DNA from: Treponematales bacterium
Lineage (GTDB): Bacteria; Spirochaetota; Spirochaetia; Treponematales; JBGSOB01
DNA length: 64,000 bases
Direction: 5' to 3'
Assembly (NCBI GenBank): GCA_041739325.1
Contig: JBGSOB010000112.1
Coordinates: 5,597-69,596, forward strand
Shown here: piece by piece, positions 28,201 through 56,231 of the stretch
Layout: each line of letters starts with the position of its first letter
Numbering within the stretch: the stretch's first letter is position 1
Translations under genes and position numbers: made by a program
The notes under the pieces: generated by a model
What the model saw: only the letters and a program-made list of their open reading frames with translations
Database searches by the model: none
Told to the model about the DNA's origin: nothing

Positions 28201-28594
28201 GAAGCACCCTTCCGGAGGGCCTAAGCATTTCCCCATATCCGGGGAGGAGTTCTAATGCCTGGGCGCTTTGACGGATAAGGCTAGAGGCCTCCCGTATATC
28301 TTCCTCAAGTCCATCTACTTCCCCATTGGCCGCTTCGAGGAAGGCTGCGCGCAAGCTGGCGGCCAAGCAACGAAGCCGTGTATGGGCTATCAAACCAGAG
28401 ATTATTGCCAAGCGGTTAGAGAGCCTCACGCCCGCGCGTAGGACCTCGTGACTCAGCCTTGTGCTTATAATCCCGCTTCCTGAAGCCCTAGGCGGCAGAG
28501 ATATCCCAACCAGGGCTTCAATTTCTGAAGCGCAGGAAGCGAGAAGCGACTTGGCCTCGGCTATGAGCGAGGAATAGGTGACAGTCATGGGCAT
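25247..28594 (-). CDS. Large sensor adenylate/guanylate cyclase (cytoplasmic N-region, 2 TM flanking an extracytoplasmic sensor, HAMP, class III cyclase)
   Basis: Motifs are TM1 (MMSIISLLILVALGTMIALASYFF), TM2 (ILLAIMVIAAAILLVYFY) and HAMP (PIRALVGAARRIEAGQFEL...DELGLLTETFVNM). The cyclase core has ATIFFSDIRGFTSISE, KYIGDAIMAVWG, IGCGLNSGPVIAGQIGS and YTVIGDSVNLASRIE. Confidence 0.8.
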   Translation of the reverse strand: MPMTVTYSSLIAEAKSLLASCASEIEALVGISLPPRASGSGIISTRLSHEVLRAGVRLSNRLAIISGLIAHTRLRCLAASLRAAFLEAANGEVDGLEEDIREASSLIRQSAQALELLPGYGEMLRPSGRVLRPPISREVSVQDICSRLAGESRVRLVPFDGRFLGENKEGIFRLSVQKKRADDSRAEGKWLSLVYFDAGSMGENGPLGLAETANALVSLIARGELLRYGGISMSYAALNGLNAILPCYGIVLTREDPSIALASRLPASRLLKIISSPDKAFLPEPGAGGPEAKAFSLYATEEDEDYLAINEEAPSAVPEPTQKIQAPKQATPSELVSPPQQEVRTHNPPTVAEAKQKAMPQAARPDPNALDSELPAGIVFPEMHETEDEGFHIDDFRIEDIQGEAKAGGSGAKIEAERENGSDEMAALLGSTAEDHDYRTQEGSEAHSAHDDYSQASSFSAPGVDYSHEADHRESKTRGSVKEARIEITHDMRIRLPISVKMMSIISLLILVALGTMIALASYFFRQEIRNQVAEASLQISQVIRQKFEYDFIAVSDKAYRLIQGYISRSRGLDQNALTALKAELYQGENEVLFAAAYPEGGGEAIAELANINALADFRMDEKTIMTAIAGRRKEIEAAVRGDALCMNISVLFREPCVLAAWSYQVEGQAGALVVIFNSRERLQESVEAQKKSIRQQQLISLEGEIIAHPDSNVVIQAQDVSNLDFFKDLQKSQANIGQFRYRDESGLYYSATYSKLQGIGAWVLSAVEEKRAFEAVANVQRNNILLAIMVIAAAILLVYFYSKSLVVPIRALVGAARRIEAGQFELSLRARAHDELGLLTETFVNMGHGLAERERLKDTFGKFVNKEIAEQAQRGTLKLGGERKHATIFFSDIRGFTSISERLEPEEVVDFLNKYMTRMVKCVNATGGVVDKYIGDAIMAVWGVPPIEGVSDAESAVNAALMMRKELIEFNLDRGGPRSPIIRIGCGLNSGPVIAGQIGSNERMEYTVIGDSVNLASRIEALNKPFGTDILVSQDTYTLVKSVFRMEKMKPIVVKGKSEPQSIYAVLGRIDDPYCPRNLAEIQSLLGLEHKDLSKVNVDEEEVKYKIADEGAAH

Positions 28595-28598
28595 ATCC

Positions 28599-28629
28599 CC
28601 TCAGAATTCGTTATCGGCTTATCTGAGGA
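28599..28629 (-). promoter_or_regulatory. Hairpin overlapping the Shine-Dalgarno of the cyclase gene
   Basis: On the minus strand, CCTCAGA (28629-28623) and TCTGAGG (28605-28599) form a 7-bp stem around a 17-nt loop. The 3' arm overlaps the GAGGGGA SD that precedes the ATG at 28594. Confidence 0.3.
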
Positions 28630-28676
28630 TCATTTCAAGAAAAAAAGAAGGAATGAGGGCTTCAATCCCCTTAAAT

Positions 28677-28708
28677 AAAAAAAAGGGCTGCCTTACGGCA
28701 GCCTTTTT
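28677..28708 (-). terminator. Intrinsic terminator (bidirectional hairpin, stronger on minus strand)
   Basis: The stem GGGCTGCC/GGCAGCC with loop TTAC is flanked by A8 (28677-28684) and T5 (28704-28708). On the minus strand the hairpin is followed by T8. Confidence 0.6.
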
Positions 28709-28897
28709 GGGCGCTGAGGGGTGGTCAAAACCCTCAGCTATCGCTTCGGGTTTTGCCCTTGCCCTCCGGGTTTCGGCATCCTGCCTCAACCCTACGGGCC
28801 GGCTCGTGCCTTGCGCCGCCGTCCTGGCGGCTTACCCCTGCGGCGCTCATCGATTCGCGCCTTCGGGGCCGGCACATCGCTTCAAACCCCTTGAAAG
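28709..28897 (-). ncRNA. Candidate structured RNA (tRNA-linked element or cis-leader), family unknown
   Basis: This roughly 190-nt GC-rich non-coding stretch is bracketed by two minus-strand terminators. Several hairpins can be drawn on the minus strand: GGCGC-N10-GCGCC; GCCGCC-AGGAC-GGCGGC; GTGCC...GGCAC enclosing both; GGGTT-GA-GGCA-GGA-TGCC-GA-AACCC; and GCTGAGGG-N10-CCCTCAGC. The 3' end repeats the tRNA-Val 3' end. Confidence 0.35.
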
Positions 28898-28927
28898 ATA
28901 AAAAAAGGCCGCCTTGAAGGCGGCCTT
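28898..28927 (-). terminator. Intrinsic terminator of tRNA-Val
   Basis: On the minus strand a 9-bp stem AAGGCCGCC/GGCGGCCTT with a 5-nt loop lies 3 nt after the tRNA 3' end and is followed by a T-run (A7 on the plus strand, 28900-28906). Confidence 0.7.
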
Positions 28928-28930
28928 AAA

Positions 28931-29003
28931 TGGGCGCTGAGGGGTTTGAACCCCCGACATTCTGGGTGTAAACCAGACGCTCTCCCAGCTGAGCTAAGCG
29001 CCC
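28931..29003 (-). tRNA. tRNA-Val (anticodon UAC)
   Basis: The minus strand GGGCGCT-TA-GCTC-AGCTGGGA-GAGC-G-TCTGG-TTTACAC-CCAGA-ATGTC-GGGGG-TTCAAAC-CCCTC-AGCGCCC-A folds as a cloverleaf with a 7-bp acceptor stem. The anticodon loop TT-TAC-AC gives the anticodon. CCA is not encoded. Confidence 0.95.
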
Positions 29004-29049
29004 TGGGGGGGCTGGGCAGGCCGTGGGAGGCCGCTTAACCCGAGGCGAA

Positions 29050-29078
29050 ACCCTAGCATGGGATGGAGGGGCTGTCAA
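29050..29078 (-). promoter_or_regulatory. Sigma70-type promoter for tRNA-Val
   Basis: The minus strand reads TTGACA (29078-29073), a 17-nt spacer, then TAGGGT (29055-29050). It lies about 46 nt upstream of the mature tRNA 5' end. Confidence 0.5.
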
Positions 29079-29112
29079 GAACCCGGAAGCGGGTAATGAA
29101 TGGAAAAAAAAC

Positions 29113-29141
29113 TTGCCAAACAATGAATTCTACCGTTAAAT
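29113..29141 (+). promoter_or_regulatory. Sigma70-type promoter for oadG-oadA
   Basis: It reads TTGCCA (29113-29118), a 17-nt spacer, then TTAAAT (29136-29141). GAGAGGAGG and the ATG at 29166 follow. Confidence 0.5.
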
Positions 29142-29165
29142 GGATGAAGCTTGAGAGGAGGTTTT

Positions 29166-56139: not shown

Positions 56140-56157
56140 TTCCTTTGATCCTGCTAG

Positions 56158-56231
56158 TGGAGGTGAGGGGAATTGAACCCCTGACCTTTTGAATGCCATT
56201 CAAACGCTCTAGCCAACTGAGCTACACCCCC
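56158..56231 (-). tRNA. tRNA-Ala (anticodon GGC)
   Basis: The minus strand folds as GGGGGTG-TA-GCTC-AGTTGGCTA-GAGC-G-TTTGA-ATGGCAT-TCAAA-AGGTC-AGGGG-TTCAATT-CCCCT-CACCTCC-A. The G3:U70 pair in the acceptor stem is the Ala identity element. CCA is not encoded. Confidence 0.95.

What the first reader, a model, noticed from the sequence alone, without database searches (positions are those of the whole stretch)
28677..28945. Structured 190-nt element downstream of tRNA-Val ends in a copy of the tRNA 3' end and has its own terminator
On the minus strand the order is tRNA-Val, an intrinsic terminator (28927-28898), about 190 nt of GC-rich non-coding sequence, then a second stronger terminator (hairpin plus T8, 28708-28677). 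The 15-mer TGGGCGCTGAGGGGT occurs at 28931-28945, where it is the tRNA acceptor 3' strand plus part of the T-arm. It occurs again at 28708-28722, directly abutting the second terminator. After the second copy the similarity continues in degenerate form as a T-arm-like hairpin, GCTGAGGG-N10-CCCTCAGC. Upstream of that, the element can form a three-way junction: GTGCC...[GGCGC-N10-GCGCC]...[GCCGCC-AGGAC-GGCGGC]...GGCAC. It can also form a nested hairpin, GGGTT-GA-GGCA-GGA-TGCC-GA-AACCC. The layout recalls the tRNA-linked repeats and the rtT RNA downstream of E. coli tyrT, where a unit ending in the tRNA 3' terminus is co-transcribed and processed out. A tRNA-like 3' end would allow processing by tRNA-maturation enzymes.
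Basis: partly seen in the sequence, partly recalled or inferred. Interest (0 to 1): 0.6.

Follow-up and report, generated by a model that had tools for sequence, protein, structure and literature searches.

The report
tRNA-linked structured RNA repeat family
The sequence behind tRNA-Val is one copy of a previously uncatalogued, strongly structured non-coding element that sits behind many different tRNA and tmRNA genes in spirochaetes. Each copy ends in a copy of its own tRNA's 3' end, like the unexplained "tRNA-linked repeats" of E. coli, and its conserved loops look like binding sites for the regulator CsrA.

Summary
In detail: tRNA-Val(TAC), terminator 1, a GC-rich structured stretch, an exact 15-nt copy of the tRNA 3' end, and terminator 2.

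The stretch is not a local oddity. A covariance model built without it scores it at 70.8 bits (E about 5e-20). That model finds 54 copies in about 40 genomes and metagenome contigs, mostly Spirochaetota.

Nearly all copies lie 100-350 nt behind a tRNA (14 amino-acid specificities) or tmRNA gene, on the same strand. Each unit reads X'-core-X:
- X is an exact 14-24 nt copy of that tRNA's 3' end, taken from the gene rather than the mature RNA (no CCA).
- X' is the reverse complement of X.
- The core has five further helices with strong covariation (92% of cells paired, 31 of 36 pairs with double changes).
- Two hairpin loops are invariant: CA(N)GGAUG, which matches the CsrA site consensus.

E. 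coli RtT has the same architecture, but Rfam RtT does not match, and no Rfam family does.

The window holds one full unit plus decayed remnants of an array.

Transcription, processing, CsrA binding and the way ends come to match each tRNA are all untested.

Verdict: a new family of a known but unexplained kind.

The parts
29050..29078 (-). Promoter-like site for tRNA-Val: TTGACA (29078-29073), 17 nt, TAGGGT (29055-29050)
   Evidence: Read directly. The same TTGACA-N17-TAGCGT lies upstream of the orthologous tRNA-Val in L002. The consensus scan did not call it because only 3 of 6 bases match in the -10 hexamer. No promoter-like site was found between terminator 1 and the element.
28931..29003 (-). 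tRNA-Val(TAC) gene with no encoded CCA. Its last 15 nt (28931-28945) are the source copy of X.
   Evidence: ARAGORN; Rfam tRNA 68.1 bits.
28898..28927 (-). Terminator 1: a 10-bp GC-rich hairpin plus T7, between the tRNA and the element
   Evidence: It is 75% identical to terminator 2, with compensatory stem changes (D2).
28881..28892 (-). X'a: AAGGGGTTTGAA, the reverse complement of tRNA T-loop/T-stem 3' (TTCAAACCCCT). This is the 5' strand of the closing helix P1.
   Evidence: I6: 11 nt, 100% complementary. Every family member has an equivalent X' of 9-21 nt.
28762..28880 (-). Conserved core of one full unit. P2 is 28875-28871 with 28810-28806. P3 (long form) is 28869-28834, with inner hairpin GGCGC-GAAUCGAUGA-GCGCC. 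P4 is GCCGCC[AGGAC]GGCGGC at 28831-28815. The 3' domain is CCC 28798-28796 with GGG 28764-28762. P5a is GGGTT 28792-28788 with AACCC 28772-28768. P5b is GGCA[GGA]TGCC at 28785-28775.
   Evidence: The CM R1 hit covers 28736-28899(-) at 70.8 bits, E=5e-20, and the window was not in the seed. Helix coordinates come, the MFE fold, and covariation.
28743..28761 (-). Degenerate X of unit 1 (CAAGGGCAAAACCCGAAGC), in the position where canonical copies carry the tRNA 3'-end copy directly after GGAGGG
   Evidence: the 3' end of the model aligns here. It pairs with 28723-28738 (I3: 16 nt, 81%).
28723..28738 (-). X'c: GCTGAGGGTTTTGACC, a reverse-complement copy of the tRNA 3' segment. It is read as the 5' end of a second unit that has lost its core.
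   Evidence: I2: 20 nt, 85% complementary to the tRNA at 28936-28955; also I3. The interpretation comes from comparison with tandem arrays in L009, L031, L037, L047 and L042.
28708..28722 (-). X: an exact 15-nt copy of the tRNA-Val 3' end (ACCCCTCAGCGCCCA: end of T-loop, T-stem 3' strand, acceptor 3' strand, discriminator)
   Evidence: (D4).
28677..28707 (-). Terminator 2: hairpin 28703-28686 plus T8
28658..28672 (-). Orphan X' (AAGGGGATTGAAGCC) after terminator 2. It is read as the vestigial start of a further unit and is followed by the 5' region of the cyclase gene.
   Evidence: D3: 26 nt, 81% identical to 28879-28904. Other loci have the same pattern of X-terminator-X' at array ends (L009, L052, L055, L036).

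Best explanation
The element is one complete unit, plus decayed remnants of further units, of a conserved family of tRNA/tmRNA-linked structured RNA elements. The family is a spirochaete counterpart of the E. coli tRNA-linked repeats.

Shown:
- A unit reads X'-core-X. X is a copy of the last 14-24 nt of the gene immediately upstream. X' is its reverse complement, so the two ends pair.
- The roughly 105-150 nt core folds into a junction (P2, P3, P4) followed by an irregular hairpin (P5).
- P4 and P5 carry invariant CA(N)GGAUG loops.

Inferred:
- The unit has no promoter of its own. It would be transcribed from the tRNA-Val promoter by read-through of terminator 1. This is the arrangement reported for the E. 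coli TLRs that lie between the dual terminators of rrn operons.
- Its 3' end would be set by terminator 2 and by the same 3'-end determinants as the tRNA.
- The released RNA would present two CsrA-type GGA hairpins per unit. It could therefore titrate CsrA (or another protein that binds GGA loops) in proportion to tRNA/tmRNA transcription.
- The family spreads between tRNA loci and then decays. That would explain the collapsed second unit and the orphan X' in the window.

My confidence by layer: about 0.9 for family identity, architecture and structure; about 0.5 for read-through transcription and tRNA-like end formation; about 0.3 for CsrA binding. The single confidence value given (0.6) is a compromise over these layers.
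For: Family and location:
- The metagenome pattern scan found copies behind tRNA-Arg, tRNA-Pro and tmRNA.
- The genome scan gave 41 loci from 36 assemblies, about 30 of them Spirochaetota. One locus (L027) is a chance hit.
- In most copies, and in every copy whose locus holds a same-strand upstream gene, the core lies behind a tRNA or tmRNA gene on the same strand, 100-350 nt away in all but one (575 nt in L051). Fourteen amino-acid specificities plus tmRNA are represented.

Ends:
- X starts directly after GGAGGG and matches the local tRNA for at least 14 nt in 34 of 41 copies. It often continues into the genomic trailer and never into CCA.
- X' is 9-21 nt long. It is the complement of X, not the tRNA's own 5' strands; L009, for example, has AGTGG where the tRNA has GGTGG.

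Structure:
- RNAalifold predicts 36 pairs, 23 of them with compensatory changes.
- In the 54-copy alignment, 92.2% of cells are paired, 31 of 36 pairs show double changes, and the covariation score is 0.554 against at most 0.096 for the slid controls.
- The orthologous locus L002 shows GGGTT/AACCC changed to GGCCC/GGGCC, and GCCGCC/GGCGGC changed to GCCCGC/GCGGGC.
- The window copy scores 70.8 bits with a model built without it.

Loops:
- The P4 loop is A(N)GGA(Y) in 50 of 54 copies, although the search pattern did not require it.
- The P5 loop is GGA or GGGA in 8 of the 9 copies that were found independently of the pattern.
- The CsrA consensus is RUACARGGAUGU with GGA in a hairpin loop, and spirochaetes have CsrA but no known csrB/csrC (PMC8668096).
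- csrA genes are present in two host loci.

Co-transcription:
- There is no promoter-like site upstream of the unit.
- About half of the first units have no terminator before them.
- The L037 array lies between two tRNA genes.
- E. coli TLRs are transcribed by terminator read-through and bind CsrA and Hfq in vitro (PMC8144298).

Spread:
- Cores are 82-88% identical between copies at different tRNAs.
- In 5-6 of 7 arrays, neighbouring units are not each other's closest relatives.
Against: - There is no expression data of any kind.
- Terminator 1 in the window is strong (10 bp plus T7), so read-through may be low.
- Paired cells hold as many A-C (29) as G-U (27), so covariation does not identify the transcribed strand or exclude a single-stranded DNA structure. 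The plus strand also folds well.
- Overall GGA density is only slightly above the dinucleotide-shuffle level (4.6 versus 3.8 per 100 nt).
- The P5 loop motif was part of the search pattern for most copies.
- No csrA gene lies in the 64-kb window.
- The 19 E. coli TLRs located in tRNA operons (as opposed to the three rRNA-operon TLRs, RrA/B/F) were predicted not to bind CsrA.
- In most copies X' covers only the T-loop/T-stem part, so a full acceptor-like helix, and with it RNase P processing, is not general.
- Many array units are truncated or degenerate, as expected for selfish repeats.
- The window copy is itself atypical: an 11-nt X', a 39-nt insert before X, and an AGGAC P4 loop.
Confidence: 0.6

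Rival explanations
1. It is primarily a DNA-level mobile element: a miniature, non-autonomous element that homes to the 3' end of tRNA/tmRNA genes. The inverted X'/X ends and the folded core would act in single-stranded or cruciform DNA. One model is the folded attP of CTX-phi-type elements, in which two inverted half-sites rebuild the target duplex. A recombinase encoded elsewhere would act on it, and any RNA made would be incidental.
For: - The same core sits behind 14 kinds of tRNA plus tmRNA, with ends matched to each.
- Cores are 82-88% identical across different tRNAs and genomes.
- Arrays are heterogeneous, so neighbouring units are not closest relatives, which suggests repeated independent insertions.
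- A second unit is present in L043 but absent in L038.
- Truncated and decayed units are common.
- X includes genomic trailer rather than CCA, so it was copied at the DNA level.
- G-U pairs are not favoured over A-C pairs.
- tRNA and tmRNA 3' ends are the classic targets of integrases (established knowledge).
Against: - No integrase, transposase or any other protein family recurs near the copies.
- There are no copies in viral contigs, phage records or plasmid records.
- There is no target-site duplication other than X itself.
- The orientation relative to tRNA transcription is always the same, and the unit is followed by a terminator.
- Unpaired loops are invariant while stems covary, and mismatches are purine-purine on the sense strand (91 versus 20 pyrimidine-pyrimidine). 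Both points fit a sense-strand RNA that binds a partner.
- No known recombinase would read so many different target sequences.
- This rival is compatible with the RNA also having a function.
Confidence: 0.25
2. It is a non-functional scar. The 15-mer repeat would be the attL/attR pair left by an integrative element that has been almost entirely deleted, or by a local tandem duplication of the tRNA 3' end and terminator. The sequence between would be junk that happens to be GC-rich.
For: - Direct repeats of a tRNA 3' end are what integrase-mediated insertion leaves (established knowledge).
- The repeat in the window extends through a homologous terminator and flank.
- Decayed units and an orphan X' are present in the window.
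- In L043 an island has in fact displaced the tRNA-Met 3' half that carries the element.
Against: - The intervening sequence is conserved in 54 copies with compensatory changes in all helices.
- It is conserved at the orthologous locus of a relative whose OAD alpha protein is only 79% identical.
- There is no integrase nearby.
Confidence: 0.03
3. It is a member of the enterobacterial RtT family (Rfam RF00391), that is, a true homologue of the E. coli tyrT repeats.
For: It has the same position and the same X'-core-X closing stem. It shows the same hallmark of 3'-end identity. A CGACC-N3-GGG-purine-rich segment followed by a GC hairpin is loosely similar in both, but that comparison was made by eye only.
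Against: - RtT does not appear among Rfam matches for the window region at E<=10, or for five canonical members at E<=1.
- As a positive control, RtT scores 133-137 bits on the E. coli locus.
- The model built here gives no hit on the E. coli tyrT locus at E<=1.
Confidence: 0.05

Closest known systems
E. coli tRNA-linked repeats (TLRs; Egan & Landy 1978; Rudd 1999), including rtT/RttR behind tyrT-tyrV (Rfam RtT, RF00391)
   Same: - They lie directly downstream of a tRNA gene on the same strand.
- The 3' end is an exact copy of the 3' end of the upstream gene (18-19 bp in E. coli; 15 nt here; 14-24 nt across the family).
- A 5' segment complementary to that copy closes the unit (one search compared).
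- They are often tandemly repeated.
- Their function is unknown.
   Different: - The core is unrelated by sequence and structure; neither model detects the other family.
- The phylum is different (Spirochaetota and a few others rather than Enterobacterales).
- The copy lacks CCA, because these tRNA genes do not encode it.
- This family also follows tmRNA genes.
- It has two invariant GGA hairpin loops.
RrA/RrB/RrF: TLRs between the dual terminators of E. coli rrnA/B/D (Stenum et al. 2021, PMC8144298)
   Same: The unit sits between two terminators behind a stable-RNA gene, exactly as in the window. [quoted passage not shown]
   Different: They follow 5S rRNA, not tRNA. They are about 100 nt long with a different sequence. 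Binding to CsrA was shown for them and has not been tested here.
CsrB/CsrC/RsmX/Y/Z sRNAs that sequester CsrA
   Same: Both have repeated hairpins that display CAGGAUG or A(N)GGA in the loop. Here the P5 loop is CAGGAUG and the P4 loop is CA(N)GGAUG.
   Different: - There is no Rfam match to any of them.
- There are only two conserved GGA hairpins per unit.
- The unit is not a stand-alone gene with its own GacA/UvrY-type promoter; it is linked to tRNA genes.
- Such sponges are not known in spirochaetes, where FliW is the known CsrA antagonist.
attL/attR repeats of integrase-borne islands in tRNA/tmRNA genes, and folded single-stranded attP sites (CTX-phi, integron attC)
   Same: Both show a direct repeat of the tRNA/tmRNA 3' end starting in the T-loop. 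Both form tandem and heterogeneous arrays at one tRNA. Inverted half-sites separated by about 100 nt are also a shared feature.
   Different: There is no recombinase gene. The inserted DNA is about 200 nt with a conserved, covarying core. The element is absent from phage, viral and plasmid collections.

Membership tests
tRNA-linked repeats (TLR) as a class | Located immediately downstream of a tRNA or rRNA gene, in the same orientation or operon | tested here: met
   The window element starts 40 nt after tRNA-Val on the same strand. Most copies found by the pattern scans follow a tRNA or tmRNA gene on the same strand; the few without one lie at a locus edge or behind a displaced tRNA 3' half.
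tRNA-linked repeats (TLR) as a class | The 3' end of the unit is identical to the 3' end of the upstream gene (18-19 bp in E. coli; PMC8144298) | tested here: met
   There are 15 exact nt in the window, where 0.01 matches are expected by chance. The match is 14-24 nt in 34 of 41 copies, each matching its own tRNA.
tRNA-linked repeats (TLR) as a class | One to five units per locus (tandem repetition) | tested here: met
   Arrays occur in L009, L031, L033, L037, L043, L056 and L057. The window has one full unit plus remnants.
tRNA-linked repeats (TLR) as a class | Transcribed as part of the tRNA/rRNA primary transcript and processed out | not testable with these tools
   No expression data are available. 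Indirect evidence: there is no promoter-like site before the unit, and arrays occur between tRNA genes without terminators.
Rfam RtT (RF00391) | Covariance-model score at or above the gathering threshold (45 bits) | tested here: not met
   RtT is not listed for the window region at E<=10, nor for five canonical members at E<=1. As a positive control it scores 133-137 bits on the E. coli tyrT locus.
Rfam RtT (RF00391) | Closing stem between a 5' segment and the tRNA 3'-end copy | tested here: met
   The RtT consensus pairs GgGaaGGAU with AUCCuuCcC. Here the equivalent helix P1 (X':X) has 94% of cells paired and double changes in 4 of 5 pairs.
CsrA-sequestering sRNAs (CsrB/RsmZ type) | Several A(N)GGA motifs exposed in hairpin loops | tested here: met
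   There are two conserved hairpins per unit. The P4 loop is A(N)GGA(Y) in 50 of 54 copies, and the P5 loop is GGA. In the window these are CCAGGACGG and GCAGGAUGC.
CsrA-sequestering sRNAs (CsrB/RsmZ type) | Homology to a described family (Rfam CsrB, CsrC, RsmX/Y/Z and others) | tested here: not met
   No such match was found.
CsrA-sequestering sRNAs (CsrB/RsmZ type) | Binds CsrA and relieves its targets | not testable with these tools
   Only the precondition could be checked. csrA genes were found in two carrier loci (L037, L067), and CsrA is known in spirochaetes. No csrA lies in the 64-kb window.
Integrase-borne integrative element (attL/attR) | A tyrosine or serine recombinase gene within or next to the inserted DNA | tested here: not met
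   The neighbours are OAD gamma/alpha, an adenylate cyclase and a FecR-like protein. No protein family recurs near the copies.
tRNA or tmRNA gene or pseudogene | Recognised by ARAGORN or the Rfam tRNA/tmRNA models | tested here: not met
   Only the bona fide tRNA-Val is detected in 28500-29150.

The most novel reading that the evidence does not exclude
These units, together with the E. coli TLRs, could be a widespread and unrecognised class of mobile non-coding RNA genes that home to the 3' ends of tRNA/tmRNA genes. In this reading their two ends (X' and X, complementary to the two strands of the target) are templated on, or act as guides for, the target, with no recombinase encoded alongside. 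In spirochaetes the RNA they encode would be the missing CsrA-titrating sponge, and it would couple stable-RNA transcription to CsrA activity.
Probability: 0.2. Interest if true: 0.85.

Novelty: new variant of a known kind. Interest (0 to 1): 0.7.

Why it matters
tRNA-linked repeats have been known in E. coli since 1978, and neither their function nor their origin has been explained. This finding matters for four reasons.

1. The same architecture (complement of the tRNA 3' end, then a core, then a copy of the 3' end) exists with an unrelated core in another phylum. It occurs behind at least 14 tRNA specificities and behind tmRNA. The architecture therefore reflects a general mechanism, not an enterobacterial accident.

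2. The family offers about 54 diverse copies with clear covariation. That is enough for an Rfam-grade model and for choosing experimental systems, including the cultivable carriers Treponema primitia ZAS-10 and Treponema sp. TIM-1.

3. The two invariant CA(N)GGAUG loops give a concrete hypothesis that can be tested with EMSA. It concerns an RNA antagonist of CsrA in spirochaetes, where only the protein antagonist FliW is known.

4. The combination of cores shared across loci with ends specific to each tRNA poses a clear mechanistic question: how does a non-coding element acquire target-matched inverted ends?

Tried and rejected
- Rfam at gathering and at permissive thresholds on the window, and on five canonical loci: only tRNA was found.
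- Other copies in the 64-kb window (blastn-short, nhmmer, CM): none. tRNA-Ala at 56157-56231 has no such element.
- Source contig through exact-protein look-up: not on record.
- Orthologous loci through the cyclase. P0002's contig ends 30 nt upstream of the gene, and P0003's and P0049's contigs have no DNA held.
- Linked protein genes: all-against-all clustering of ORFs within 5 kb of 45 copies found only spurious antisense 'ORFs' over the element itself and locus-specific synteny.
- Phage, plasmid and viral carriage: no matches.
- Insertion of the core into the tRNA's own T-loop, with X' being the tRNA's own T-stem 5' strand plus loop. Rejected, because with non-palindromic T-loops (TTCAAAT, TTCAAAC, TTCGATT) X' is the reverse complement, not the tRNA's own sequence.
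- Copy made from mature tRNA (a retroviral-PBS-like origin). Rejected, because X continues into the genomic trailer, X' is not preceded by TGG, and there is no CCA.
- Strand assignment from G-U versus A-C counts: uninformative (27 versus 29).
- GGA over-representation as a bulk statistic: weak. Only the positional conservation in loops is informative.
- 'Empty' X'-X hairpins behind other tRNAs in the fetched loci: none beyond diverged family members.
- Literature: nothing on such elements outside E. coli and enterics in the held library.
Full report
**1. Observation**

On the minus strand the window reads, in order: a promoter-like TTGACA-N17-TAGGGT, tRNA-Val(TAC) at 29003-28931, a 10-bp hairpin plus T7, a GC-rich stretch, the 15-mer ACCCCTCAGCGCCCA at 28722-28708, and a second hairpin plus T8.

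The 15-mer is identical to the last 15 nt of the tRNA gene. It occurs only twice in 64 kb, where 0.01 matches are expected.

The stretch is 66% G+C against 57% for the window. The opposite strand folds nearly as well (z = -5.5).

The repeat finder added two facts:
- The repeat continues for about 65 nt through a homologous terminator, with compensatory stem changes, into AAGGGGnTTGAAGC.
- That last motif is the reverse complement of the tRNA T-loop/T-stem segment TTCAAACCCCT.

Neighbouring genes are ordinary chromosomal ones. OAD gamma/alpha are divergent upstream, and a HAMP-adenylate cyclase and a FecR-like protein lie downstream. No Rfam family other than tRNA matches, even at E<=10.

**2. 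The orthologous locus**

The closest retrievable relative is the pair of metagenome contigs L002/L003. Its OAD alpha is 79% identical, and it keeps the cyclase, tRNA-Val and OAD synteny.

Behind its tRNA-Val lies a homologous element. Every helix is kept through compensatory changes:
- GGGTT/AACCC becomes GGCCC/GGGCC.
- GCCGCC/GGCGGC becomes GCCCGC/GCGGGC.
- GGCGC/GCGCC is retained around a different loop.

The L002 element ends in CGATCCCCTCAGCGCCCACAA, which is that species' own tRNA 3' end (T-loop TTCGATC rather than TTCAAAC). It begins with TGAGGGGATCGAA, the reverse complement of the same segment. So the ends track the local tRNA while the core is conserved.

**3. A family**

A pattern taken from the conserved 3' domain found 22 metagenome stretches. 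Four of them (three distinct copies; L012 and L018 are the same sequence) are non-coding copies behind tRNA-Arg, tRNA-Pro and a tmRNA gene, each with ends matching that gene.

A refined pattern found 41 loci in the species-representative genomes. They come from about 36 assemblies:
- about 30 Spirochaetota (Treponema including T. primitia ZAS-10 and Treponema sp. TIM-1, Treponemataceae, Rectinemataceae, Spirochaetia);
- one Hydrogenedentota MAG;
- three MAGs labelled Deltaproteobacteria;
- two unclassified.

One hit (L027, Prevotella) lies in coding DNA and is a chance match. Viral contigs gave nothing.

In most copies, and in every copy whose locus holds a same-strand upstream gene, the core lies downstream of a tRNA or tmRNA gene on the same strand. 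The distance is 100-350 nt in all but one copy (575 nt in L051). The partners are Val, Arg, Pro, Asn, Cys, Thr, Ser, Lys, Ala, His, Met, Leu, Trp and tmRNA.

Directly after the conserved GGAGGG begins X, an exact copy of the local tRNA 3' end running from T-loop position 56/57 to the discriminator:
- It is at least 14 nt long in 34 of 41 copies.
- It often continues 1-4 nt or more into the genomic trailer.
- It never continues into CCA.

X is therefore copied from the gene or precursor, not from mature tRNA.

X' is 9-21 nt long and always ends in ...TCGAA or ...TTGAA. It lies about 76 nt before the 3' domain. It is the Watson-Crick complement of X rather than the tRNA's own 5' strands; L009, for example, has AGTGG where the tRNA has GGTGG.

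**4. Structure**

Twenty-six short-form copies align almost without gaps. RNAalifold predicts 36 pairs, 23 with compensatory changes.

A covariance model built from them (R1) finds 54 copies at E<=1e-10 in the fetched DNA. The window copy was not in the seed and scores 70.8 bits (E about 5e-20) at 28736-28899.

On the 54-copy alignment:
- 92.2% of cells form standard pairs;
- 31 of 36 pairs show changes on both sides;
- the covariation score is 0.554, against 0.03-0.10 when partners are slid by 1-3 columns;
- no shuffle out of 500 reaches the observed values.

That alignment is fitted to the model, which inflates these numbers somewhat. The independent MAFFT/RNAalifold result and the two-species comparison point the same way.

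The architecture is:
- P1, the X':X closing helix;
- a junction of P2, P3 (variable, with short and long forms) and P4;
- a 3' hairpin reading CCC-GGA-P5a(5 bp)-GA-P5b(4 bp)-loop-GA-P5a'-GGA-GGG.

Stems vary but two loops do not. The P4 loop is A(N)GGA(Y) in 50 of 54 copies, giving CAUGGAUG in 17 and CAGGGAUG in 13, and the search patterns did not impose this. The P5 loop is GGA. Of the nine copies found independently of the pattern, seven have GGA and one (L002) has GGGA.

**5. Anatomy of the window copy**

Read against the family, the window holds the following.

| Feature | Coordinates |
|---|---|
| tRNA-Val, carrying the source copy of X | 28931-29003 |
| Terminator 1 | 28898-28927 |
| X'a, 11-12 nt | 28881-28892 |
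| Complete core with long-form P3 (GAAUCGAUGA loop, shared with L036, L053, L055, L056 and L060), P4 loop AGGAC and P5 | 28762-28880 |
| Degenerate X | 28743-28761 |
| X'-like segment | 28723-28738 |
| Exact X | 28708-28722 |
| Terminator 2 | 28677-28707 |
| Orphan X' | 28658-28672 |

The orphan X' is the stump of a further unit.

Other loci also end in truncated or degenerate units (L030, L042, L047, L037).

**6. Comparison with known systems**

E. coli TLRs are defined by 18-19 bp at their 3' end identical to the 3' end of the upstream tRNA or 5S gene. There are 22 copies at ten loci, and they have no known function. [quoted passage not shown]

I fetched the tyrT-tyrV locus (L068). Rfam RtT hits it four times at 133-137 bits. 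The RtT consensus structure is closed by GgGaaGGAU pairing with AUCCuuCcC of the tRNA-Tyr 3' copy, which is the same X'-core-X logic.

RtT does not match the window region or canonical members. Model R1 does not match the E. coli locus.

The element is therefore a TLR by the defining features of the class, but it belongs to a different sequence/structure family that is absent from Rfam 15. I found no description of it in the held literature.

**7. How it may work**

Shown: the position, the ends, the structure, the conserved loops, and the lack of any linked protein gene.

Inferred, transcription:
- There is no room or signal for a promoter between terminator 1 and X'.
- About half of first units follow the tRNA with no terminator at all.
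- The L037 array lies between two tRNA genes.
- Transcription from the tRNA promoter, by read-through where a terminator intervenes, is therefore the simplest model. It matches the E. coli rrn TLRs.

Inferred, 3' end: X is followed by a trailer and terminator like the tRNA's own, so 3'-end formation probably uses the same determinants.

Inferred, 5' end: only about ten copies have an X' long enough to rebuild a full acceptor/T-stem helix. RNase P processing therefore cannot be general.

Inferred, function: the invariant CA(N)GGAUG loops match the CsrA site consensus, RUACARGGAUGU with GGA in a hairpin loop. Spirochaetes have CsrA with FliW as antagonist and no csrB/csrC (PMC8668096). Two carrier loci encode csrA. 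I therefore propose, at about 0.3, that the RNA titrates CsrA in step with stable-RNA transcription.

Evidence that weakens the functional inference:
- Bulk GGA density is barely above shuffles.
- The P5 motif was part of the search pattern for most copies.
- E. coli TLRs located in tRNA operons were predicted not to bind CsrA.
- The G-U versus A-C count (27 versus 29) gives no strand signal. The excess of purine-purine mismatches on the sense strand (91 versus 20) and the fixed orientation do favour a sense RNA.

**8. Spread**

- Core similarity ignores tRNA identity. Copies behind Asn, Trp, Thr, Met, His, Arg and tmRNA in different genomes are 82-88% identical.
- In 5-6 of 7 arrays, adjacent units are closer to units at other tRNAs in other genomes than to each other.
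- In one Hydrogenedentota MAG, two different tRNA-Ser genes share an identical 3' end plus about 330 nt of downstream array.
- L043 has a second unit that L038 lacks. In L043 an island inserted at the anticodon loop of tRNA-Met has displaced the 3' half that carries the array.
- No copy occurs in phage, viral or plasmid collections, and no recombinase is linked.

The family evidently moves between tRNA loci and decays. How a unit acquires an X and a perfectly complementary X' for each new tRNA remains unexplained.

I excluded a mature-tRNA origin, because X carries genomic trailer and no CCA. I also excluded simple insertion into the tRNA's own T-loop, because X' is the reverse complement even where the T-loop is not palindromic. 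A folded single-strand attP-like mechanism, or target-templated synthesis, remains open.

**9. Verdict**

The element is a member of a new, well-supported RNA-structure family of a known but unexplained kind.

- Novelty: new variant of a known kind.
- Interest: 0.7.

The interest rests on the size and clarity of the family, on its extension of the TLR phenomenon to another phylum and to tmRNA, and on two testable questions: CsrA binding, and the origin of the target-matched ends.

Noticed in passing
L043:4380-4480 (minus strand), compared with L038:4042-4115: Only the 3' half of tRNA-Met, from the anticodon loop onward, precedes the element in L043, and the upstream sequence is unrelated. This looks like the displaced half of a tRNA-Met gene split by an element integrated at the anticodon loop. 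L048 and L050 carry Met-type X copies without a tRNA nearby and may be similar cases.
   Followed up: partly
L037:5615-5821 and L067:5073-5276: csrA homologues (43-52% identical to E. coli and B. subtilis CsrA) lie about 5 kb from the repeat arrays in two Treponema-type loci. The two loci share synteny, so this counts as one event and may be coincidence.
   Followed up: partly
L019:3049-3078 and L024:4500-4529: Two GC-rich metagenome contigs share a related but different motif, GCCGGCCCG-nAAGGC-GAGGCAUGGAUGCCG-nnCGGGCC. In L024 it lies about 100 nt upstream of tRNA-Leu(TAA). Model R1 scores it only 16.7 bits, and no Rfam family matches.
   Followed up: partly
L051:1602-1812: The Treponema primitia ZAS-10 copy carries an insertion of about 70 nt inside the P4 loop, after AUGGAU. 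It still scores 125 bits.
   Followed up: no
L055:4949-5131 and L060:6343-6529: The two tRNA-Thr copies share an extra GC-rich hairpin of about 25 nt inserted in the P4 loop (ACGGAAGCGCGCGAG...). This defines a subfamily conserved between an unclassified MAG and a Rectinemataceae MAG.
   Followed up: no
L001:1-30: The metagenome contig that carries the closest cyclase orthologue (63% identity) ends 30 nt upstream of the gene, which is where the repeat would lie. This may be an assembly break caused by the repeat.
   Followed up: no
L003:8728-9237 compared with L002:8538-9298: Two otherwise identical contigs differ about 5 kb from tRNA-Val. L003 has a Y1 (IS200/IS605-type) transposase gene where L002 has other small ORFs.
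   Followed up: no
L047 (minus strand), about 330-450 nt downstream of tRNA-Ser(CGA): After the array comes a TTGACA-type promoter-like sequence and then a segment containing GGUCCGGAAGGAAGCAAC. This looks like SRP (4.5S) RNA and is followed by a dnaX-like ORF. It was read by eye only.
   Followed up: no
window:28578-28901 (+), and the antisense ORFs over the element in L031, L038, L043, L062, L064 and L066: Mechanical ORFs of 90-130 aa (366 aa in L064) run antisense across the element and cluster together by BLASTP. This happens only because the DNA is conserved. They are not genes, but they could be mis-annotated as hypothetical proteins.
   Followed up: yes
window:22460-28594 (-): The pair of a HAMP-adenylate cyclase (1115 aa) and a FecR/Ig-like protein (924 aa) downstream of the element is conserved as a pair in the two metagenome orthologues.
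   Followed up: no
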